Shown here piece by piece: positions 25,926 through 41,953 of a stretch of 64,000 nucleotides of DNA (positions within the stretch are counted from its first letter, which is position 1; every line of letters starts with the position of its first letter). Under the pieces are notes generated by a model. The model saw only the letters and a list, made by a program, of their open reading frames with translations. It did not search any database and was not told where the DNA came from. The DNA is from an uncultured archaeon (GTDB taxonomy: Archaea; Micrarchaeota; Micrarchaeia; Anstonellales; Bilamarchaeaceae). Made by a program: the position numbers and the translations under genes. The DNA is taken from assembly GCA_963734525.1 (NCBI GenBank), contig CAVTHI010000001.1, positions 25,637 through 89,636 on the forward strand. The letters run 5' to 3'.

Positions 25926-27563
25926 ATGAGAACCTTCCTCGCGTTCGGACTTATCCTGATATTGGGATTGTACGGCTGTATCGGCCAGGCGTGCCCCAGC
26001 ACGGTCGAGCCGGTTTGCGGAAAAGACGGCGTTACTTACACCAACGCATGCCAGGCGGTGCAGGCCGGGACCACGGTCAAGGCCAACGGCACCTGCGAAG
26101 CGAACCTCTGCGAAGATTCGGACGGCGGCAAGGACCTGTTCAACCAGGGGACCGCCTCGGCCCGCGGAGGCAGTGTCCAGGACAAGTGCAAGGATGCGCT
26201 TACCGTGACCGAAGCGTACTGCTCGGCCAGTGCGGCGGTCTCGGAAGACTTCCCCTGCCCGGGCGGCTATGCGTGCATGGCAGGCGCATGCGTCAAGACG
26301 CCCTGCCAGGATACCGACAACGGGAAGGATGCGAATGTCAGGGGCACGGTTACATCGCCCGGGACAAGCGCCAGCGACGAGTGCACGGGCTCATATTCGG
26401 TCAAGGAATACTATTGCAGCGGCGATGCGGCCAAATCCGAGGATATCGCATGCGGCGACGGGATGCAGTGCGTCAGCGGCGCGTGCATCGAGGCGGCGTG
26501 CGTCGATTCGGACGGCGGCAAGGATGCCCTGAAAAGCGGCACCGTCACGAAGGGGCAGGATACGTTCCAGGATGCGTGCAGCGGCTCCACTGCGGTGAAG
26601 GAATACTACTGCAGCGCAAAGAATGTCCAATCCGAGGTGCTCCCGTGCGGGTCCGGGTTCGTCTGCCAGGACGATAAGTGCCTCAAGGAGGTCTGCACCG
26701 ACAGCGACAACGGCAAGGACACCTCGGTGAAAGGCACGGCGTCATACCAGAACAAGACCGGGACCGACAGCTGCTACAGCAGCACGGCAGTCCTGGAATA
26801 TTTCTGCTATTCCGAGACGTCGATGCAGTACGAGAAGATCAACTGCCCGAGCGGCAAGGAATGCTTCGACGGCAAGTGCAGGACTGTCGAGTGCACCGAG
26901 GTCGTGACGAATATCGACGAGGCCAACAAGAGGTATAACATAGCGAACTACGACGACACCGACGAGCTCTTCCTCCACGTCGGGGAGGTAGTCGAGATAA
27001 ACGACGAGTTCCTTGTGAAGCTGTATTCAATCAGCGGCAACACATCCACGTTCAGGATGTACGAGAACTACCAGGCCCTCAAGGACAACGACCACCTCTG
27101 CGCCTTCTCTCTCGACGATGGCGACAGCGACAATGATTTCTGCGGCGAGAACACCGAGACCATCGAGATACTTTCGGTGAACGACAGCGAGGACATGGTC
27201 GAGCTTTCAATCGGCGAGTACCACGCGGTCCAGTTCTACACCCAGGAGGGCAGCATCAGCGACTGGACTGACAACCCGATTTGCCCCGATGACGAGACCG
27301 TCTACGACCTGTACAAGTCGGAGTTCTACCCCTACCTCGACACGTCAGCCTCGCACCTCGACCTCGAAGGGAAGAGGTTCGACATATTCGACACGACTGC
27401 GAGGATAATCGACGTGTCGAGCGACACGGTGACAATCGAGCTTGACGGGGAGGAATTCGAGCTCGGGACCGGCGACAGGTTCGACTACCTCGGCCAGGGC
27501 TACAGGGCCACGCTGACGTTCAACGACGGCGGGCTCTTCAAGTTCGACGCCAGGCCGTCCTGA
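25926..27563 (+). CDS. secreted cysteine-rich protein: signal peptide, Kazal-like module, 4 tandem ~65-aa Cys repeats, acidic C-terminal domain
   Basis: hydrophobic N-terminus; PVCGKDGVTYTNAC Kazal signature with six Cys; repeats begin C-x-D-(S/T)-D-(G/N)-G-K-D and contain EYYCS and C-x-G-x-C motifs. Confidence 0.7.
   Translation: MRTFLAFGLILILGLYGCIGQACPSTVEPVCGKDGVTYTNACQAVQAGTTVKANGTCEANLCEDSDGGKDLFNQGTASARGGSVQDKCKDALTVTEAYCSASAAVSEDFPCPGGYACMAGACVKTPCQDTDNGKDANVRGTVTSPGTSASDECTGSYSVKEYYCSGDAAKSEDIACGDGMQCVSGACIEAACVDSDGGKDALKSGTVTKGQDTFQDACSGSTAVKEYYCSAKNVQSEVLPCGSGFVCQDDKCLKEVCTDSDNGKDTSVKGTASYQNKTGTDSCYSSTAVLEYFCYSETSMQYEKINCPSGKECFDGKCRTVECTEVVTNIDEANKRYNIANYDDTDELFLHVGEVVEINDEFLVKLYSISGNTSTFRMYENYQALKDNDHLCAFSLDDGDSDNDFCGENTETIEILSVNDSEDMVELSIGEYHAVQFYTQEGSISDWTDNPICPDDETVYDLYKSEFYPYLDTSASHLDLEGKRFDIFDTTARIIDVSSDTVTIELDGEEFELGTGDRFDYLGQGYRATLTFNDGGLFKFDARPS
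26106..26895 (+). repeat. four tandem ~195-bp intragenic repeats encoding the Cys-rich modules
   Basis: repeat starts tgcgaagattcggacggcggcaagga / tgccaggataccgacaacgggaagga / tgcgtcgattcggacggcggcaagga / tgcaccgacagcgacaacggcaagga. Confidence 0.7.
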
Positions 27564-27662
27564 TTCTTTTTATTTTTCTTATCCCTTATTTTTCCTTGAT
27601 TTTATTTTATAGGCCGTCCCGCCCGGCCTATTTTTAAGAATTGCATGCGACAAGCGGACTGA

Positions 27663-28570
27663 TGAAAATACTTATTACCGGCTCGAGCGGCACGATAGGG
27701 ACAAGGCTGTTCGAGATGCTGCTTGCACAGGGGCACGATGTCACGGGAGCCGACCGCAGGCCGAACAAATGGAAGCCGGAGCTGGATGCGTAAGACACGC
27801 CGGATAGACCTTCTCGACAAGGACGCGCTGATGGGGCTTGAAGGGCGGTATGACGCAATCGTTCATCTTGCAGCAAACGCGCTCGTGTACAAGCTGGTCG
27901 TCAACCCGGACATGGCCATGGAGAATGTGAACACCTGCTTCAACGTCCTGGAATACGCCAGGGCCAAAGATGTCGGCAGGGTGTTCTTCGCATCGTCCAG
28001 GGAAGTCTACGGCAACATCATGGGCGCAAAGCATGTAAGCGAAGGCGACATGCGGGTCGGGAACTGCGAAAGCCCGTATTCGGCGAGCAAGATGGCAGGT
28101 GAGGCGTACATGCACGCGTATTCAAACTGCTACGGCATCAGGCACGTGATAGCGCGGTTTTCCAACGTCTATGGGATGTACGACGACTCCGAGCGCGTCG
28201 TGCCCCTCTGGATACGGCAGATGAAGAAGGGCGAGGCCGTGACCATCTACGGCAGGGAGAAGACATTGGATTTCACCTACATCGACGACTGCGTCGACGG
28301 CATTACCCGCATCGTCGGCAGGTTCGATTCCGTAGCAGGCGAAACGTTCAACATCGCGTCCGGCAACGACGTCAAGCTGACCGACGTCGCGGAGATGCTG
28401 AAGGGCATCATCAAGTCGAAATCGGAAATACGCTGGGCGACATCCGTCCGGGCGAGGTCTGGAAATACAAGGCCGACAATTCCAAGGCGAAGAAACTGCT
28501 CGGATTTATGCCGAAAAGAGGATCGAGGACGGACTGAAAAGGACTGTCGGGTGGTATTCAGCGTATTAAA
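27663..28570 (+). CDS. NAD-dependent epimerase/dehydratase, interrupted by 2-3 apparent +1 frameshifts
   Basis: N-terminal MKILITGSSGTIGTRL Rossmann motif stops at ~27794; body in ORF 27723..28577 (YSASK catalytic motif); conserved C-terminus ...GLKRTVGWY found in a third frame near 28440-28560. Confidence 0.7.
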
Positions 28571-28779
28571 AAAATAGAAAATAGTGTTCCAGGTAAAATT
28601 AGTGGATTAGTAACTGGACTAGTGCTACTTAGGGGTGCAGAAAGGCCATTGAAGGGGGTATCTGACGAAATTCGGATTGACCTTCCACTGTGAACGGTTC
28701 CAGTAATAGAACTTTTTATGCACTGACGGGAGATATTAGAGGATTATTTGAAGCGTATTCTAATTCAAAGAAAATTTTA

Positions 28780-29238
28780 TTATGACCTAAACCCTTTTGG
28801 GCGGGATTTTTTACTTCTAATATCTTTCAAACTAATCCAACTTTCGGCTTCACAAAAAGTAATTTCAAATGCATCAAAGAAACCACTTCGTCCTAAAACT
28901 ATTTCATCGAGCTCGTTCAAAATACAACAATGGATATTTCGAAGTGTAACAGGATTGTGTATCAGAGGTATTTCCATCGTGATACTAGATTCAATACCGG
29001 ATACTAGTCCCCCGGCAGTATCAATCTTAGTTTCCTCACCTTGTTCGAGCTCAAGGATTTCTGCGATATCATTGTTGATATACATCCAAGTTGATCCTGA
29101 ATCGATTAACCCCATTGTTTCGAATTGGTTGCCTCCACTACCTTTCAAAATAACAGGTATACGAGGAGCTAGCGGTTTGGAATCGTCTTCGTGCTCTAAT
29201 GACAGTGATTTTCTATAATGAAACTTTTGCCCACTCAT
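28780..29238 (-). CDS. retropepsin-like aspartic peptidase (clan AA)
   Basis: LIDSGST D(S/T)G active-site motif and downstream EIVLGRSGFF hydrophobic-Gly motif; 152 aa; in low-GC islet. Confidence 0.6.
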   Translation of the reverse strand: MSGQKFHYRKSLSLEHEDDSKPLAPRIPVILKGSGGNQFETMGLIDSGSTWMYINNDIAEILELEQGEETKIDTAGGLVSGIESSITMEIPLIHNPVTLRNIHCCILNELDEIVLGRSGFFDAFEITFCEAESWISLKDIRSKKSRPKGFRS

Positions 29239-29242
29239 AGAA

Positions 29243-29449
29243 TCACAATATTTCCATGGAATTTTTTTTGGGGATTTTCGTTAACATGACACGTTTGTTT
29301 TTTGATTCCCCCAAAGCCTTTTTGTAGACGTCCGTGGCATTAGGCCCAGACGCTATAAGATTACCTTTGAAAATAGCTACCCACATACCCTGAAAATTAG
29401 ATAAATCCATTGATAGATAAGCATGATAATTCTTTGAGATGGACGTCAA
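29243..29449 (-). CDS. small hypothetical protein (68 aa) immediately upstream of retropepsin-like gene
   Basis: ORF 4 nt upstream of the protease gene, same strand, same low GC. Confidence 0.4.
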   Translation of the reverse strand: MTSISKNYHAYLSMDLSNFQGMWVAIFKGNLIASGPNATDVYKKALGESKNKRVMLTKIPKKNSMEIL

Positions 29450-29609
29450 AGCATATCACCTTAGTTGATAGTTTCCAGGTAGTATAATAAACTTATAGAC
29501 CTCGTTGTGGCGCATTATTGTGAATTATAGTTATAATTGGTGTCTACTAATATAAAAATCTGTCTTTTTTGGGTATACTTACCACCGAGGGATACTCAGG
29601 AAAAGAAAA

Positions 29610-29787
29610 TGCTCCTGCCGCGATTTGAACGCGGGTTCACAGAGTTCTTCCGCCTTTTAGGAAAAGGCGGCCCAAAACAGGTCTGTCTGCAAATCCTTCG
29701 AGGATTTGCATACAGATTGTTTTTGGGCGCTTTTTTCCAAAAAGCGCTGAGAGTCTGTTGTCCTTGACCGGGCTAGACTACAGAAGC
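29610..29787 (-). tRNA. tRNA-Glu (anticodon CTC) with 103-nt intron at canonical 37/38 position (exons ~29748-29787 and ~29610-29644)
   Basis: hand-folded: acceptor GCTTCTG/CAGGAGC, D-arm GTCT/GGAC, anticodon stem ACAGA/TCTGT split by intron, loop CTCTCA|C, T-arm CCGCG TTCAAAT CGCGG. Confidence 0.65.
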
Positions 29788-30134
29788 TAAGCTTAGCGAC
29801 TAATCATGACAACAAGGGTTTTAAAAGATTAAAGCAGGCCCCTTTTCCTCAGCTCCCCGGCGATTTTCGACGGCGCGGGCCTGCAGTTGCAGCTCCGCGC
29901 ATGCGCAAGGTGCCACTCGACCCTCTGCTCGAACGTCGCCCCCACCGGGATGCGGTTCCTATCGTGCCAAACTGAATTTATCTTTAACACCATTCCCCCA
30001 CCTTGGGAGAATTAGCAAAGGAAGATAGAAAAGGCTATCCGAGCCCCACAAGGCTCGCATGGATTATAACTTAGCCCCGATTTCTCCCCGGCTTCACGCC
30101 GAAGAGAGGGGCTAGGCGGGGATTGTCGCGCGTA

Positions 30135-30998
30135 TTACCTCTTCCTTCTTTTCTGGAGGCGAATCGAGGCTTTTGCGACCCTTGCGGCCCTTATTTTGCT
30201 TCGTGATTTGCGGACCGGCACGCGCGCCTTGCTCGCTTTCTTGATTGTTGAACGCGCGACGCGCTTTTTGGCGGGTTTCGCGGCTTTAGAGCGTTTTGAA
30301 ACGCGAACAGCCTTCTTCGGCGCTTTCCTGGCCGCCGGGACTGCCGGGGACAGGTGGGACATCTCGTCCCTGCCGTGCGAACGGACCGAGTGGATGAGGC
30401 TCCGGACTATGTGCTCGCCCTTCTGGGCGCTAAGCGGATGGCTGTCCGGGCTCTTGCGGGAATCGAAATGCCTTGATTGCTCCTGGAAACGCGGCGGCGG
30501 GAGCATTGCCGATTCCAGGCGCTCGCGGGCTCGCACCGGCATGTCGCGCATGTAGGCGAGGTCGTGGTTGGAAGAGACGGGCTCGATGACGCCGAGGCGC
30601 GGGGCCGCCCCGTCCCTTGACACCGGCCTGAAGTTCAATGCGAGCGCCGAGCGGTCCGACGGGTTCGGCATGAACGGCTTGGCTGAAACCTGCTTCGCGG
30701 GCGCGCGGATGTCCTGCACCGGGTTCCTGCGCATGGCAAGCCGCACAAGCTCGCCGCGCTCGCTTGGTGAAAATGACTGGGTTGCGTTCCGCATCAGTTC
30801 CGGCATGACGTATGCGGCCTCCGGCGTCCCGCCGTAGGTGCCGAGGAATTCAATCATCGCGCACTTGGCGGCCGCAGGCCCGCGCGTTCCGGCCCACTGC
30901 TTCAGTTCGGCCCAGACCTGCCTTGCGCCCTTGCCGCTTGAGGCGATTTCGCGCGCCTCGTTTCTCAAGTCTTCAGGAAAGAATCGCATGGATTGCAT
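30135..30998 (-). CDS. hypothetical protein with extremely basic K/R-rich C-terminal tail
   Basis: 287-aa ORF; last ~70 aa are KAPKKAVRVSKRSKAAKPAKKRVAR... low-complexity basic. Confidence 0.45.
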   Translation of the reverse strand: MQSMRFFPEDLRNEAREIASSGKGARQVWAELKQWAGTRGPAAAKCAMIEFLGTYGGTPEAAYVMPELMRNATQSFSPSERGELVRLAMRRNPVQDIRAPAKQVSAKPFMPNPSDRSALALNFRPVSRDGAAPRLGVIEPVSSNHDLAYMRDMPVRARERLESAMLPPPRFQEQSRHFDSRKSPDSHPLSAQKGEHIVRSLIHSVRSHGRDEMSHLSPAVPAARKAPKKAVRVSKRSKAAKPAKKRVARSTIKKASKARVPVRKSRSKIRAARVAKASIRLQKRRKR

Positions 30999-31061
30999 TC
31001 TCCGCTAAGCTTAATTTATGTATCTGTCCAAGGGACTATGCTTGTTTTGCATAATTGAGGT

Positions 31062-32541
31062 GTGACAATGGATTTCAACAGGGATGTCAAAAAGCCCAGT
31101 TTCAGGAAGATTGACGATTACGTCTGGGAGATAGGCACGGATTACAAGCCGGGCATGCTCGTCCCGGCGCGCATGTTCGCGAGCGAAGCGCTTCTCAACC
31201 ACATGGACAACACGGTCTTCGACCAGATAACCAACGTCGCGACGCTTCCGGGCATCGTGAAATACGCTTACTGCATGCCGGACGGGCACAGCGGCTACGG
31301 GTTCCCGATTGGCGGGGTCGCCGCGATGGACGTCAACGACAACGGCGTCATCTCGCCTGGCGGCATCGGGTTCGACATCAACTGCGGCATGAGGCTCGTC
31401 CGCACGGATTTGACAATCAAGGACGTCCAGCCGCGCCTGAAGGAGCTCGTGGATAAATTGTTCGGGAAGGTCCCGGCAGGCGTCGGCAGCAAGGGATTCG
31501 TCAGGCTGGATGCCGGCGCGTTCCGCAAGGTAATCGAGGAGGGCGCGCCTTGGTGCGTCGACAACGGCTACGGATGGAAGGACGACCTCGAAGCCACCGA
31601 GCTCGGGGGCAGGGACGATGGCGCGGACGAGAAGACAGTTAGCGACAAGGCGGTCGAAAGGGGGAAGGGCCAGATAGGCACGCTGGGGAGCGGCAACCAT
31701 TACCTTGAAATCCAGCATGTGAAGGAGGAGAACATATTCGACAAGGCGCTCGCAAAGAAATGGGGCATCTTCCCGGACCAGATAGTCATCATGTTCCATT
31801 GCGGCTCGCGCGGGTTCGGCCACCAGGTCGCGACGGACTACCTCAACCAGTTCCTCTCGGTCATGGAGAGCAAGTACAAGATCAAGATACTCGACAGGGA
31901 GCTTGCATGCGCCCCGTTCAATTCCCCTGAGGGGCAGGCGTATTTCAAGGCCATGAAGTGCGCGATGAACATGAGCTTCGCGAACAGGCAGACAATCGTC
32001 CACCGCGTGCGCGAGGTGTTCAGCGAAGTCTTCAAGACGGATGCGGAAAAGCTCGGGATGAAACAGGTTTACGACGTCTCGCACAACCGGGCCTCGGTGG
32101 AGAAGCACAGCGTGGACGGGACCATGAAGGAGCTGGTCGTCCACCGCAAGGGCGCGACCGCGGCATACGGCCCGGGCAGGGAAGAGCTTTCCCCAAGGTT
32201 CCGCGACGATGGCCAGCCGGTAATCATCGGCGGGAGCATGGAAACCGGCAGCTACCTGCTTTCAGGCGTCGCAAGCGGCGCGAGCACGTGGTTCACGACA
32301 GCCCACGGCTCAGGCAGGACGATGTCCAGGACGAGGGCCAAGCAGCTCTACCGCGGCGACCAACTGCAGAAGGACATGGAAAAGCGCGGGATTTACGTGA
32401 AGACGAGCTCGTATGCGCGGCCTTGCCGAAGAGGCAGGCGCGGCGTACAAGGACATCGACGAGGTCATCGAGACCACCCACCGGGCGGGGATATCGAACA
32501 AGGTGGCCAAGCTCGTGCCTATAGGGAATGTCAAGGGCTAG
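31062..32541 (+). CDS. rtcB: RNA-splicing ligase RtcB, with one +1 frameshift near 32417
   Basis: [39 protein letters not shown] motifs; alternate frame after tatgcgcgg restores canonical ...[42 protein letters not shown] end. Confidence 0.85.
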
Positions 32542-33502
32542 AGCTCGCGAAGTCGCCCCTCCCAGTGTTGATTGCGAGAGTGGTGGAGCGCTCCAAGACC
32601 GAGCCCCGGATTGCCGCGAATACCGTCGCGGCACTAGGCTCGCATGCGAGGCCGGCGCGATTCGCCACCTTGTAGGCCTCCAGGATTTCATCGTCGGTGA
32701 CATAGCACAGGCAAGCAGTCATTTTCCGGAAAAAGGAGAATGGTGTCACAAGTTTGTCCGCAACACGGCTTTTCTGGGAGACGCGAAAAAATGGGTTCCC
32801 GGCCACGGAGGCGCCCCGTATCCTGGCTATGGAATGCGGATGCTCCCACTGCTCATTTCCGAAAGGGTGGTGACACATGAAGTTGAAATAGAGCTCGCCG
32901 CTGCCGATGGGCATGAAAATCACATCCGCCGTCTCCCGGGCGACCTCTCCGACCAGCCGTACGTACAGGCCGGATTCGGGGGACTGGAAAGTGAGATATT
33001 CCGGGTTTATAAGCGAAACGTGGTCTTTTCCAAAGCGCCCGACCAAAAGCTCGACCTGCTTGCTCCGTGAGAGTATGATGTCAATCAGCTCAGACGGGGG
33101 AAAATAATGGGTTGAAAGATCGAGTTCAAGGACCTCGGACACCTCGGCAAGTTTCCCCTTGATTGCCGGTTCCAGCCCCCTATCCACGAAATTGACGACA
33201 CCGACAACCCGGTCGCCGGTATACCGGTTGTACATATCCGCGATTTTTCCAAGGCTATAGCCGGCGTTGCCATAGGTTATGGAATAGACGACCATGGCGT
33301 TGACAATAGCGCGCTCCGCGTGGAATAGCTCAAGCAGCCGCACGCTCCGGAAATCCTTCATGGTGCCCGTGACGGTGCGGCTACAATCCTTTACCCAGAG
33401 GTCCTCTGTTCTGCAGAAATCCGACAGCAGTGGCGGCGCCCGTATCAGCGGGGCCTTTGGCCTGAGCAGCCGGTGAGGGAATGACGACAACTGGGTAGGC
33501 AT
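32531..33502 (-). CDS. PLP-dependent enzyme, fold type II (threonine synthase / cysteine synthase / TrpB-like)
   Basis: TGTMKDFRS (PLP-Lys SFKDR-like), [22 protein letters not shown] glycine loop, GLACEPSAA. Confidence 0.6.
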
Positions 33503-41649: not shown

Positions 41650-41692
41650 AGTTTTTAAACACGATTCGCCAATCAAGGTTCTATCTTCAATT

Positions 41693-41846
41693 GCCTCGGT
41701 AGCTCAGCCGGTAGAGCGGCTGACTGTTAAGGCTTTTTGACTTCTGTCTTTCTCCGGGCAAAAACCCTGGAAAAAACCCTGAGGATAAAGGAGGTCAATT
41801 CGCCAAAGCAATCAGCAGGCCGGAGGTTCGAATCCTCCCCGGGGCG
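41693..41846 (+). tRNA. tRNA-Asn (anticodon GTT) with 81-nt intron at canonical 37/38 position (~41730-41810)
   Basis: hand-folded: acceptor GCCTCGG/CCGGGGC (one GU), D-arm GCTC AGCCGGTA GAGC, anticodon stem GCTGA/TCAGC interrupted, loop CTGTTA|A, T-arm GGAGG TTCGAAT CCTCC. Confidence 0.75.
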
Positions 41847-41953
41847 TGAAAACATAAGAGAAGCATTAGCCTCGGGGACACGAGAACGATTCGTCGTTCT
41901 CGGAAATCCCCAGGGCGTTTTTCTAATTATAAACACGTCCGGGCCAATAACCG

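What the first reader, a model, noticed from the sequence alone, without database searches (positions are those of the whole stretch)
28571..29787. Low-GC two-gene islet (retropepsin-like aspartic protease + 68-aa partner) inserted at the 3' end of an intron-containing tRNA-Glu
GC drops from ~60% to ~38% over ~1.1 kb. Immediately 3' of tRNA-Glu (the classic integration target) lie two co-directional genes. One is a 152-aa protein with the D-S-G-S-T active-site signature and the hydrophobic-Gly flap of retroviral-type (clan AA) aspartic proteases. The other is a 68-aa protein whose stop is 4 nt from the protease start. No integrase is present, so this may be a decayed integrated element. Alternatively it may be a mobile protease plus small-partner cassette, analogous to a toxin-antitoxin or protease-adaptor pair.
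Basis: seen in the sequence. Interest (0 to 1): 0.65.

Follow-up and report, generated by a model that had tools for sequence, protein, structure and literature searches.

The report
Foreign protease-plus-partner cassette beside tRNA-Glu
A 1-kb stretch of foreign, AT-rich DNA in a Micrarchaeota (DPANN archaeon) genome carries a self-contained two-gene operon, a 68-aa DUF5678 protein followed by an HIV-protease-like aspartic protease, and this pair recurs as a sporadic cassette in other archaea, where its behaviour resembles a toxin-antitoxin or inhibitor-protease module whose function has not been tested.

Summary
Window 28578-29609 has GC 0.37, against 0.58 for the whole window. It is the only 1-kb stretch below 0.47 (z = -5.8). 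Its genes have GC3 of 0.31-0.42, against 0.74-0.84 in neighbouring genes.

The islet lies between an epimerase pseudogene and the 3' end of a native tRNA-Glu(CUC) with a 103-nt intron. It encodes, on the minus strand, a DUF5678 protein (68 aa) and, 4 nt later, a 152-aa stand-alone retropepsin-like protease. The protease has the DSG catalytic motif, a Gly-rich flap and the LGR motif. Its AF2 model (pLDDT 92.6) best matches FIV protease, Rickettsia APRc, HTLV protease and DDI1.

Related Micrarchaeota keep the tRNA and its neighbours but lack both genes, so the islet was acquired horizontally.

The DUF5678-then-protease pair recurs in eight other distinct loci in unrelated contexts. Some neighbours are integrase, ParE, HicB, MNT/HEPN or restriction-modification genes. 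DNA similarity to the nearest relative covers only the two genes.

There is no att repeat, no integrase, and no tRNA near any other copy, so classical tRNA-targeted integration is not supported.

Best mechanism, inferred only: the small protein binds and restrains the protease dimer, in a toxin-antitoxin-like way. Novelty: a new variant of a known kind. Interest: moderate.

The parts
29610..29787 (-). Native tRNA-Glu(CUC). The 5' exon is 29787-29748, the 103-nt intron is 29747-29645 and the 3' exon is 29644-29610. It marks the right-hand border of the islet and is not part of the foreign DNA.
   Evidence: ARAGORN with introns allowed finds it. Orthologues in L006, L007, L008, L014 and L081 are called Glu(CTC), and their exons are nearly identical. 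It folds as a cloverleaf, z = -7.6.
29450..29609 (-). AT-rich leader of the cassette (GC about 0.33). It carries a TATA-like TTTATTATA about 45 nt upstream of the start codon, and a GGTGA Shine-Dalgarno-like motif 6 nt upstream of the TTG start.
   Evidence: Sequence read directly and GC profile. The promoter assignment is an inference.
29243..29449 (-). DUF5678 small protein, 68 aa, TTG start, pI 9.9. The predicted fold is helix, beta-hairpin, helix, strand, followed by a disordered C-terminal tail ending in ...EIL.
   Evidence: Pfam PF18929 at E = 3.9e-7, 30.2 bits against a cut-off of 23.2. 74 homologues were found. AF2 pLDDT is 80.3. The TTG start matches the N-terminus MTSI(M/S)KNY of homologues.
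28780..29238 (-). Stand-alone retropepsin-like (clan AA) aspartic protease, 152 aa, pI 5.1. It has catalytic D46-S-G, flap T74-A-G-G77 and the V114-L-G-R117 motif.
   Evidence: Pfam PF13975 scores 26.9 bits (cut-off 28.2) and PF13650 scores 23.9 bits (cut-off 24.3). The family has 626 representative clusters. D46, G48 and R117 are invariant in 60 sequences. The family profile hits FIV protease at E = 2.7e-6. AF2 pLDDT is 92.6. Foldseek top hits are FIV protease, APRc, HTLV protease and DDI1.
28578..28779 (-). Low-GC 3' tail of the islet. A T-run (TTTTCTTT) lies just after the protease stop and is a likely archaeal terminator. About 190 nt follow with no recognisable feature.
   Evidence: Sequence. 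No Rfam match. No conserved ORF.
27662..28569 (+). NAD-dependent epimerase/dehydratase pseudogene with host-like GC and three frameshifts. It forms the left-hand border of the islet and is absent from the orthologous spot in relatives.
   Evidence: Pfam PF01370. A three-frame reading shows the frame changes. No tblastn hit in 80 related loci.

Best explanation
A roughly 1.03-kb piece of foreign, AT-rich DNA lies in a variable spot of a Micrarchaeota genome. It sits between a decaying epimerase gene and the terminator of the native tRNA-Glu(CUC).

It carries one self-contained operon: a promoter-like leader, a 68-aa DUF5678 protein, a 152-aa single-domain retropepsin-like aspartic protease 4 nt later, and a T-run.

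The two genes form a unit that moves between archaeal genomes by itself, as toxin-antitoxin cassettes do, rather than as cargo of a tRNA-targeting integrative element.

Proposed mechanism (inferred, not shown). The protease forms the usual retropepsin homodimer, with one catalytic Asp from each subunit. The co-translated DUF5678 protein binds it directly and holds it in check. This may work through its flexible tail, which almost always ends in a hydrophobic residue followed by Leu, lying in the substrate cleft like a cleavage product. Loss or displacement of the small protein would release proteolysis.

Confidence is about 0.9 that this is a horizontally acquired DUF5678-retropepsin operon, and about 0.35-0.4 that it works as an inhibitor/protease (toxin-antitoxin-like) pair.
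For: Shown:
- Compositional outlier.
- Absent from all related genomes that conserve the tRNA-Glu, 287-aa gene and RtcB synteny, and absent from 1.3 Mb of such loci.
- The interval between the Kazal-domain gene and the tRNA varies from 0.28 to 3 kb among relatives.
- DUF5678 lies directly upstream of the protease, on the same strand, from abutting ORFs to about 40 nt apart (stop codon included), in nine distinct loci: the window, L001, L002/L003, L084, L085/L089, L086, L088, L095 and L097. L086 has a C-terminally cut protease.
- The genomic contexts are unrelated. They range from ribosomal and SRP genes to neighbourhoods with integrase, ParE, HicB, MNT/HEPN, restriction-modification and RadC genes, or an IS3-like element.
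- The cassette also has lower GC than its host in L084 and L086.
- DNA similarity to the nearest cassette spans exactly the two genes, 29449-28810.
- The protease has all retropepsin hallmarks and the retropepsin fold.

Indirect support for a physical, inhibitor-like partnership:
- All five loci found through the protease have an intact DUF5678. Of nine loci found through DUF5678, only four have an intact protease, two have a truncated or frameshifted one (L092, L102), and three have none (L087, L094, L100). This is the asymmetry expected when the effector cannot exist without its neutraliser.
- The isoelectric points of the two proteins are anticorrelated across nine pairs (Spearman rho = -0.87, not corrected for phylogeny).
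- 42 of 48 DUF5678 proteins end at the same alignment position with a hydrophobic residue followed by Leu. Six carry 2-5 extra residues.
Against: - There is no functional data of any kind.
- DUF5678 has no recognisable DNA-binding fold. Most type II antitoxins have one.
- Neither protein matches any PADLOC defence model or any informative PHROG.
- No copy was found on plasmids, phages or viral contigs.
- Some cassettes sit among housekeeping genes (L089, L092).
- The orphan asymmetry rests on 14 loci with ascertainment caveats. The pI correlation is not corrected for relatedness.
- The C-terminal-tail idea is conjecture, because no complex could be modelled with the tools.
- How the DNA arrived is unknown.
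Confidence: 0.55

Rival explanations
1. Remnant of a tRNA-targeting integrative element (provirus, integrative plasmid or genomic island) that inserted at the 3' end of tRNA-Glu and later lost its integrase and most of its cargo. Only the two-gene cassette survives.
For: The islet abuts the 3' end of a tRNA gene. This interval is variable among relatives. Two cassette loci elsewhere lie next to tyrosine-recombinase genes: L097, and L087 which holds an orphan DUF5678.
Against: There is no integrase here. The tRNA 3' part is not duplicated, and no att-like repeat exists in 27500-31000 or anywhere in the 64-kb window; the best matches are 11-15 nt chance hits. The 7-mer AGAAAAT at both borders occurs three times in 1.2 kb. 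None of 16 other cassette loci scanned (several of them duplicate contexts) has a tRNA within 4-5 kb. Similarity to the nearest relative stops at the gene ends.
Confidence: 0.15
2. A non-toxic regulatory protease with its dedicated substrate, adaptor or chaperone. DUF5678 would be cleaved by the protease, or would target or fold it, as in ImmA/ImmR, SpoIIGA/pro-sigma-E or RimB/RimK. The pair would provide a conditional benefit rather than addiction or defence.
For: The operon coupling is tight. Characterised bacterial retropepsin-like enzymes such as APRc, RimB and the Pseudomonas Rlo proteases are processing or regulatory enzymes, not toxins (papers listed: PMC4140852, PMC11957791, PMC12239564). 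Six DUF5678 variants carry short extensions after the conserved hydrophobic-Leu end, which could be cleavage substrates. Some cassettes sit among housekeeping genes.
Against: The distribution is sporadic and horizontally transferred, and the pair is absent from close relatives. Neighbours are frequently toxin-antitoxin, defence or mobile genes. Orphan DUF5678 genes and decayed proteases suggest the small protein is kept for its own sake. The data do not exclude this explanation.
Confidence: 0.25
3. Ordinary vertically inherited host genes whose low GC reflects local constraint, or an assembly chimera that joins DNA of two organisms.
For: The window comes from an uncultured lineage, since all relatives are metagenome-assembled genomes. 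The adjacent epimerase carries frameshifts.
Against: The relatives lack both genes. GC3 differs by about 0.4 from the host genes. Host-like sequence with conserved synteny continues on both sides of the 1-kb insert, which a chimeric join would not give. An independent read set (Logan ERR12037368) assembles the same protease and a DUF5678 gene together on a 1.2-kb contig. The same kind of low-GC cassette lies inside a 151-kb contig (L084).
Confidence: 0.04

Closest known systems
Prokaryotic single-domain clan AA peptidases (COG5550 / TIGR03698 'clan_AA_DTGF', Pfam Asp_protease_2 and gag-asp_proteas) and retroviral retropepsins
   Same: The protein is one domain of about 140 aa with D(S/T)G, a Gly-rich flap hairpin and a hydrophobic-Gly-Arg motif. 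It has the predicted retropepsin fold, so it presumably acts as a homodimer.
   Different: It scores just below both Pfam cut-offs, and only 16.6 bits against TIGR03698, whose cut-off is 57. It has an extra N-terminal F-(K/R)-Y strand and a C-terminal extension. In the window's subfamily the Asp that follows DSGA in most members is Thr (DSGST). It is archaeal and is coupled to DUF5678. The literature says 'little is known' about these prokaryotic families (PMC2642776).
Characterised bacterial retropepsin-like proteases: Rickettsia APRc, Pseudomonas RimB, P. aeruginosa Rlo enzymes
   Same: Same fold: the APRc structures 5c9f and 5c9b are among the top structural matches. All are stand-alone or single-domain aspartic proteases outside retroelements.
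   Different: Going by the titles and abstracts listed, APRc acts at the Rickettsia surface, the Rlo enzymes are secreted, and RimB works within the RimABK ribosome-modification complex. The window protein has no known functional link of this kind; from its sequence I saw no obvious signal or membrane segment, but no predictor was run. None of those enzymes has a DUF5678 partner or a mobile two-gene organisation.
Type II toxin-antitoxin cassettes, and protease/small-partner modules such as ImmA-ImmR (COG2856-Xre)
   Same: Two small co-directional genes with a tiny intergenic gap and the small partner first. The pair has a patchy, horizontally transferred distribution, including neighbourhoods rich in ParE, HicB, MNT/HEPN and restriction-modification genes. 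Orphan small partners and decayed effectors occur.
   Different: The effector is an aspartic protease, which does not appear in the Makarova 2009 and 2013 surveys. The partner has no known DNA-binding fold. Toxicity, neutralisation and autoregulation are untested.
tRNA-linked genomic islands and integrative elements of archaea
   Same: A compositionally foreign insert directly downstream of a tRNA gene, at a site that varies among relatives.
   Different: It has no integrase, no att duplication of the tRNA 3' end, only 1 kb of DNA, and no tRNA association of the cassette elsewhere.

Membership tests
Retropepsin-like (clan AA, A2-type fold) aspartic protease | Catalytic Asp-Thr/Ser-Gly triplet | tested here: met
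   D46-S47-G48 is present. D46 and G48 are invariant, and S/T47 is conserved in at least 90% of a 60-sequence family alignment.
Retropepsin-like (clan AA, A2-type fold) aspartic protease | Flap beta-hairpin with conserved Gly, and the C-terminal hydrophobic-Gly-Arg/Met (ILG-type) motif | tested here: met
   The flap is T74-A-G-G77 (family consensus GIGG). V114-L-G-R117 is present, with R117 invariant. The family profile aligns to FIV protease across both motifs, E = 2.7e-6.
Retropepsin-like (clan AA, A2-type fold) aspartic protease | Retropepsin fold | tested here: met
   The AF2 model has pLDDT 92.6 and pTM 0.84. Foldseek top hits are FIV protease (E = 8.8e-6, target TM 0.71), APRc, HTLV-1 protease, HIV-1 protease and DDI1.
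Retropepsin-like (clan AA, A2-type fold) aspartic protease | Curated family score cut-offs (Pfam PF13975 and PF13650; NCBIfam TIGR03698) | tested here: not met
   Scores are 26.9 against 28.2 bits, 23.9 against 24.3 bits, and 16.6 against 57.35 bits. These are near misses for Pfam. Relatives P0001 and P0002 carry precomputed Pfam hits. I treat the protein as a divergent subfamily of the clan, not a member of TIGR03698.
Retropepsin-like (clan AA, A2-type fold) aspartic protease | Homodimer with proteolytic activity at acidic pH, sensitive to pepstatin or retroviral protease inhibitors | not testable with these tools
   This needs biochemistry, or at least multimer modelling.
DUF5678 (Pfam PF18929) | Match above the curated cut-off | tested here: met
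   30.2 bits against 23.2, E = 3.9e-7, covering profile positions 4-49 of 49. All 74 homologues carry PF18929.
Type II toxin-antitoxin module | Two-gene operon, small partner upstream, minimal intergenic distance, conserved pairing | tested here: met
   The gap is 4 nt here. Elsewhere the two ORFs abut or lie up to about 40 nt apart, stop codon included. The pairing holds in nine distinct loci.
Type II toxin-antitoxin module | Sporadic, horizontally mobile distribution, often in toxin-antitoxin, defence or mobile neighbourhoods | tested here: met
   The pair is absent from relatives. It forms a low-GC islet in three hosts. Neighbours include ParE, HicB, MNT/HEPN, integrase, restriction-modification and IS elements.
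Type II toxin-antitoxin module | Antitoxin with a DNA-binding domain that autoregulates the operon | tested here: inconclusive
   The DUF5678 model (helix, hairpin, helix, strand) has no significant PDB match by sequence or fold. No RHH, HTH, AbrB or Phd signature was seen.
Type II toxin-antitoxin module | Effector toxic when alone; neutralised by direct binding of the partner | not testable with these tools
   Only indirect hints exist: the orphan and decay asymmetry and the pI anticorrelation, rho = -0.87.
tRNA-targeted integrative element / genomic island | Site-specific recombinase (integrase) within the element | tested here: not met
   The 1.03-kb islet holds only the two ORFs. The flanking genes are an epimerase pseudogene, a conserved 54-aa ORF, a 287-aa protein and RtcB.
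tRNA-targeted integrative element / genomic island | Direct repeat (att) that duplicates the 3' part of the tRNA at the far border | tested here: not met
   There is no repeat family linking the tRNA to 28500-28800. Short-word blastn of the tRNA and its flanks against the whole window gives only 11-15-nt chance matches, none near the islet border.
tRNA-targeted integrative element / genomic island | Foreign composition and position next to the tRNA 3' end | tested here: met

The most novel reading that the evidence does not exclude
DUF5678 plus retropepsin is a previously undescribed class of archaeal toxin-antitoxin or abortive-infection module. Its toxin would be a homodimeric aspartic protease of the HIV-protease fold. 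Its antitoxin would be a small protein that plugs the active-site cleft with its conserved C-terminal hydrophobic-Leu carboxylate, acting as a product mimic in the way the HIV transframe peptide restrains the viral protease. Such free-standing, mobile retropepsins in archaea would also be candidates for the prokaryotic stock from which Ddi1-type and retroelement proteases arose.
Probability: 0.25. Interest if true: 0.75.

Novelty: new variant of a known kind. Interest (0 to 1): 0.5.

Why it matters
Retropepsin-type proteases are well studied in retroviruses and eukaryotes. In prokaryotes only a few bacterial examples have a known role, and none is archaeal.

This work shows that one subfamily travels between archaeal genomes as a fixed pair with a DUF5678 protein. 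That gives the domain of unknown function its first functional context, as a protease partner. It also gives a concrete, cheap experiment: test whether the protease alone is toxic and whether the partner rescues it.

If the pair is a toxin-antitoxin or defence module, it would add a new effector chemistry to those systems. It would also provide a natural protein inhibitor of an HIV-protease-like enzyme.

The locus also documents recent gene acquisition in a small DPANN genome, at a hot spot beside a tRNA gene and without the usual integrase signature.

Tried and rejected
Searches that found nothing:
1. An att or partial tRNA copy: repeat finder on 27500-31000, and short-word blastn of the tRNA with its flanks against the whole window. 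Only chance matches came up. The AGAAAAT 7-mer at both islet borders was rejected as chance, because it occurs three times in 1.2 kb.
2. Virus or plasmid origin: the viral-contig scan with alignment A3 found nothing. tblastn of the protease against the plasmid and phage collections found nothing. PHROGs gave nothing informative.
3. Known defence systems: no PADLOC hit for either protein.
4. Natural DUF5678-protease fusions as evidence of interaction: longer family members (P0133, P0076 and others) show only the protease domain in Pfam. The N-terminal extension of P0133 is not DUF5678-like by hhalign (probability 0.2).
5. DUF5678 fold assignment: there are no significant PDB sequence or Foldseek hits. 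The BLIP-II and deaminase matches are noise. BFVD gives only weak hits to Pandoravirus 'DUF5678 domain' proteins.
6. Non-coding RNA in the islet: no Rfam match.
7. Literature: no functional paper on DUF5678. Aspartic proteases are not mentioned in the Makarova 2009 and 2013 toxin-antitoxin and defence surveys. Nothing was found for TIGR03698 or PF18929, and nothing for the combined search terms.

Readings considered and rejected:
8. An amber-suppressor or Pyl tRNA (ARAGORN's CTA call) was rejected on orthology and on the predicted junction structure.
9. The + strand 156-aa ORF at 28748-29218 was rejected as a shadow of the protease gene. This rests on inference only: it lies antisense across the protease gene, and it was not separately searched.

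Tools that could not be used:
11. Alignment A2 was too diverse for the search for related loci.
12. The metagenome scan with A3 returned only three loci.
Full report
OBSERVATION

The compositional drop is real and sharp. In 300-nt windows GC falls from 0.55-0.65 to 0.35-0.41 between about 28500 and 29700. The stretch 28578-29609 has GC 0.371. The window mean for 1-kb stretches is 0.582 (sd 0.037), so this is z = -5.8. It is the only 1-kb stretch in the 64 kb below 0.47. Third-codon-position GC is 0.31 for the protease gene and 0.42 for the DUF5678 gene, against 0.74-0.84 for six neighbouring genes.

On the minus strand lie a 68-aa ORF (29449..29243, TTG start) and a 152-aa ORF (29238..28780, ATG start). 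They are separated by 4 nt. A GGTGA motif lies 6 nt upstream of the TTG. A TATA-like TTTATTATA lies about 45 nt upstream. A T-run follows the protease stop. The islet therefore looks like a complete small operon.

THE tRNA

Default ARAGORN and the Rfam tRNA model miss the gene. ARAGORN with introns allowed finds it at 29787..29610 with a 103-nt intron, but calls the anticodon CTA ('Pyl').

That call comes from an ambiguous splice position. Five related genomes have a gene at the orthologous place that ARAGORN calls tRNA-Glu(CTC), with introns of 28-135 nt. Their exons are almost identical to the window's. The pre-tRNA folds as a cloverleaf with a bulge-helix-bulge-like junction that places C36-A37 in the 5' bulge (z = -7.6).

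The gene is therefore a native tRNA-Glu(CUC). It is intact and is followed by its own T-rich trailer.

HOST AND ORTHOLOGOUS LOCI

The RtcB gene at 31062-32675 is 80-94% identical to RtcB of Micrarchaeota metagenome-assembled genomes. In these relatives three features are syntenic: the 287-aa gene next to RtcB, the tRNA-Glu, and further out a 545-aa Kazal-domain gene.

None of the 80 fetched loci contains a relative of the protease or of DUF5678. This holds by tblastn and by profile search of all six-frame ORFs in 1.3 Mb.

The interval between the Kazal-domain gene and the tRNA 3' end is variable. It is 0.28 kb in L014, about 0.95 kb in L007, about 3 kb in L006 and about 2.5 kb in L008, with different genes in each. 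In the window it holds two things. One is an epimerase gene of host-like composition that is absent from the relatives and carries three frameshifts, while its neighbours are intact, so it is a pseudogene. The other is the low-GC islet.

The islet is an acquisition.

THE PROTEASE

Pfam gives near-threshold hits to gag-asp_proteas (26.9 bits against 28.2) and Asp_protease_2 (23.9 against 24.3). A profile of the protein and two relatives found 626 representative clusters at E <= 1e-3. Nearly all of the best 150 are stand-alone proteins of about 130-150 aa.

In a 60-sequence alignment P25, D46, G48 and R117 are invariant. The motifs are D-S/T-G-(A/S)-(D/T), a flap GIGG (TAGG in the window) and LLGR-GFF. 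This profile matches FIV, EIAV, RSV, HIV, HTLV and DDI1 proteases in the PDB, with a best E of 2.7e-6 and an alignment running from the N-terminal strand through DTG to LLGRD.

The AF2 model is confident (pLDDT 92.6). Its best structural matches are FIV protease, Rickettsia APRc, HTLV-1 and HIV-1 proteases and DDI1. The second refutation condition, missing fold elements, is also not met.

The protein is a divergent member of the prokaryotic single-domain clan AA peptidases. The literature I could search says little is known about them (PMC2642776).

THE PARTNER

The 68-aa protein matches DUF5678 above threshold. A profile of seven cassette-encoded copies retrieved 74 homologues, all carrying PF18929.

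Its predicted structure is helix, beta-hairpin, helix, strand, followed by a disordered tail (pLDDT 80). It has no significant solved relative. Only weak matches appear, to Pandoravirus 'DUF5678' proteins. I found no functional literature on it.

THE PAIR IS A UNIT

Every locus found through the protease has DUF5678 directly upstream on the same strand: L001, L002/L003, L084, L085 and L086.

Loci found through DUF5678 fall into three groups:
- An intact protease downstream in L088, L089, L095/L096 and L097-L099.
- A truncated protease in L092/L093 (64 aa, still carrying DSGAD) and a frameshifted one in L102.
- No protease in L087 (Aciduliprofundum boonei; a 66-aa coiled-coil-like gene follows), L094, and L100/L101 (a 75-aa Cys-rich gene follows).

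The contexts are unrelated. L089 has ribosomal and SRP genes, and L092 has a hydrogenase operon. L097 has an integrase. L087 has ParE, an integrase and an AAA ATPase. L088 has HicB. L102 has MNT/HEPN pairs. L100 has a type I restriction-modification methylase and RadC. L086 has an IS3-like element that cuts the protease C-terminus.

The cassette has lower GC than its host in L084 (0.42-0.48 against 0.55) and in L086 (0.33-0.37 against 0.57), and it matches low-GC hosts elsewhere. Nucleotide similarity between the window and its nearest relative (L002/L003, 68% identity) runs exactly from the DUF5678 start to near the protease end, 29449-28810. The conserved and transferred unit is therefore the two genes themselves.

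HOW IT ARRIVED

The classical signature of tRNA-targeted integration is missing:
- There is no integrase.
- The tRNA 3' part is not duplicated near 28570-28800 or anywhere in the window.
- The 7-mer AGAAAAT at both borders occurs three times in 1.2 kb and is best read as chance.
- No other cassette locus has a tRNA within 4-5 kb.

I conclude that the position beside the tRNA reflects a locally permissive, variable intergenic spot, not tRNA-directed integration. A fully decayed element cannot be excluded.

HOW IT PROBABLY WORKS (INFERENCE)

A retropepsin monomer contributes one catalytic Asp, so the enzyme should act as a homodimer. This follows from established knowledge of the family.

Four observations suggest that DUF5678 binds and restrains it.
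1. The genes are tightly coupled in one operon.
2. There is an asymmetry. The protease is never seen without DUF5678 (six of six loci, counting the window). DUF5678 often outlives the protease: five of nine DUF-ascertained loci have a decayed or absent protease. This is the pattern of toxin-antitoxin pairs.
3. The isoelectric points of the two proteins are anticorrelated across nine pairs. Examples are 9.9 and 5.1 in the window, and 4.4 and 9.4 in L088. Spearman rho is -0.87, uncorrected for relatedness. This suggests co-adapted electrostatics of a complex.
4. 42 of 48 DUF5678 proteins end at the same alignment position with a hydrophobic residue followed by Leu, on a tail predicted to be disordered. 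Six carry 2-5 extra residues beginning with K or R.

The last point prompts a specific, untested idea. The free C-terminus may occupy the cleft like a P-side cleavage product, and the longer forms may be trimmed to that state.

Several things count against a canonical type II toxin-antitoxin reading. No DNA-binding fold is recognisable. There is no PADLOC match. Aspartic proteases do not appear in the toxin-antitoxin surveys I checked.

The main rival is a non-toxic processing protease with a dedicated substrate or adaptor. This is what the characterised bacterial retropepsin-like enzymes resemble (APRc, RimB and Rlo). It remains plausible.

NOVELTY AND SCORE

Both protein families exist in databases, and islets of foreign DNA are commonplace. 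What I did not find described is the fixed DUF5678-retropepsin pairing and its behaviour as a mobile two-gene module in archaea.

I rate it a new variant of a known kind, namely small-partner/effector cassettes, and give it moderate interest (0.5). A specialist would be mildly surprised, and the hypothesis can be tested directly with simple genetics and biochemistry.

The most novel reading not excluded is an aspartic-protease toxin with a product-mimic protein inhibitor. I give it a probability of about 0.25.

Noticed in passing
window 27662-28569 (+): An NAD-dependent epimerase/dehydratase gene of host-like GC carries three frameshifts, two of them at short G or A runs near the 3' end. Neighbouring genes are intact, so it is a pseudogene rather than an assembly error. 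It is absent from the orthologous interval in all related genomes.
   Followed up: partly
window 29610-29787 (-); L006 8651-8776, L007 8631-8781, L008 6531-6740, L014 8901-9026, L081 109-211: The tRNA-Glu(CUC) intron varies from 28 to 135 nt among Micrarchaeota, while the exons stay nearly identical. The intron's 5' hairpin is kept through compensatory changes (GAAAC...GTTTC in relatives, GCGC...GCGC in the window). Default ARAGORN and Rfam miss the gene. ARAGORN with introns allowed miscalls the anticodon as CTA/'Pyl'.
   Followed up: partly
window 41692-41847 (+): A second intron-containing tRNA, Asn(GTT) with an 81-nt intron. Rfam finds it (56.5 bits), and so does ARAGORN with introns allowed.
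   Followed up: no
window 31062-32675 (+) relative to 29610-29787: The tRNA-splicing ligase gene RtcB lies 1.3 kb from the long-intron tRNA-Glu. This neighbourhood (tRNA-Glu, 54-aa ORF, 287-aa gene, RtcB) is conserved in several Micrarchaeota genomes.
   Followed up: partly
window 29829-29993 (-); L006 8824-8985, L007 8835-8996: A small 54-aa ORF (..WHDRNRIPVGATFEQRVEWHLAHARSCNCRP..) lies between the tRNA and the 287-aa gene. It is 76-83% identical in two relatives and has no Pfam or NCBIfam match. It is probably a real conserved small protein with a His/Cys motif.
   Followed up: partly
window 30135-30998 (-): A 287-aa protein is conserved next to RtcB across Micrarchaeota (30-70% identity) but has no Pfam or NCBIfam family.
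   Followed up: no
window 25926-27563 (+): A 545-aa protein with an N-terminal Kazal-type serine-protease-inhibitor motif. It is conserved in relatives at 48-58% identity, and paralogue-like copies occur in several loci.
   Followed up: no
P0173 (70 aa, MCD6369928.1, Thermoplasmata archaeon); P0161; P0181: Source databases name some DUF5678 proteins 'succinyl-CoA synthetase subunit alpha', 'DNA repair protein RadC' or 'ABC-type hemin transport ATPase'. For 70-aa proteins these look like propagated misannotations.
   Followed up: no
L092/L093 4233-4427; L102 1328-1713; L086 497-895: Decayed protease genes lie beside intact DUF5678 genes. One is truncated after DSGAD (64 aa), one is frameshifted into two fragments, and one is cut at its C-terminus where a high-GC segment carrying a large, unannotated transposase-like ORF (read by eye as IS3-like) begins.
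   Followed up: yes
L087 4270-4470 (Aciduliprofundum boonei T469) and L100 4186-4413: Here DUF5678 is followed not by a protease but by a 66-aa acidic coiled-coil-like protein, or by a 75-aa Cys-rich (zinc-ribbon-like) protein that overlaps it by 4 nt. DUF5678 may therefore pair with alternative partners.
   Followed up: partly
BFVD hits A0A2U7UG46, A0A2U7UD66, S4VV29: The only fold matches to the DUF5678 model are weak (E about 0.02, TM 0.6-0.7). They are Pandoravirus proteins, two of which are annotated as DUF5678 domain-containing.
   Followed up: no
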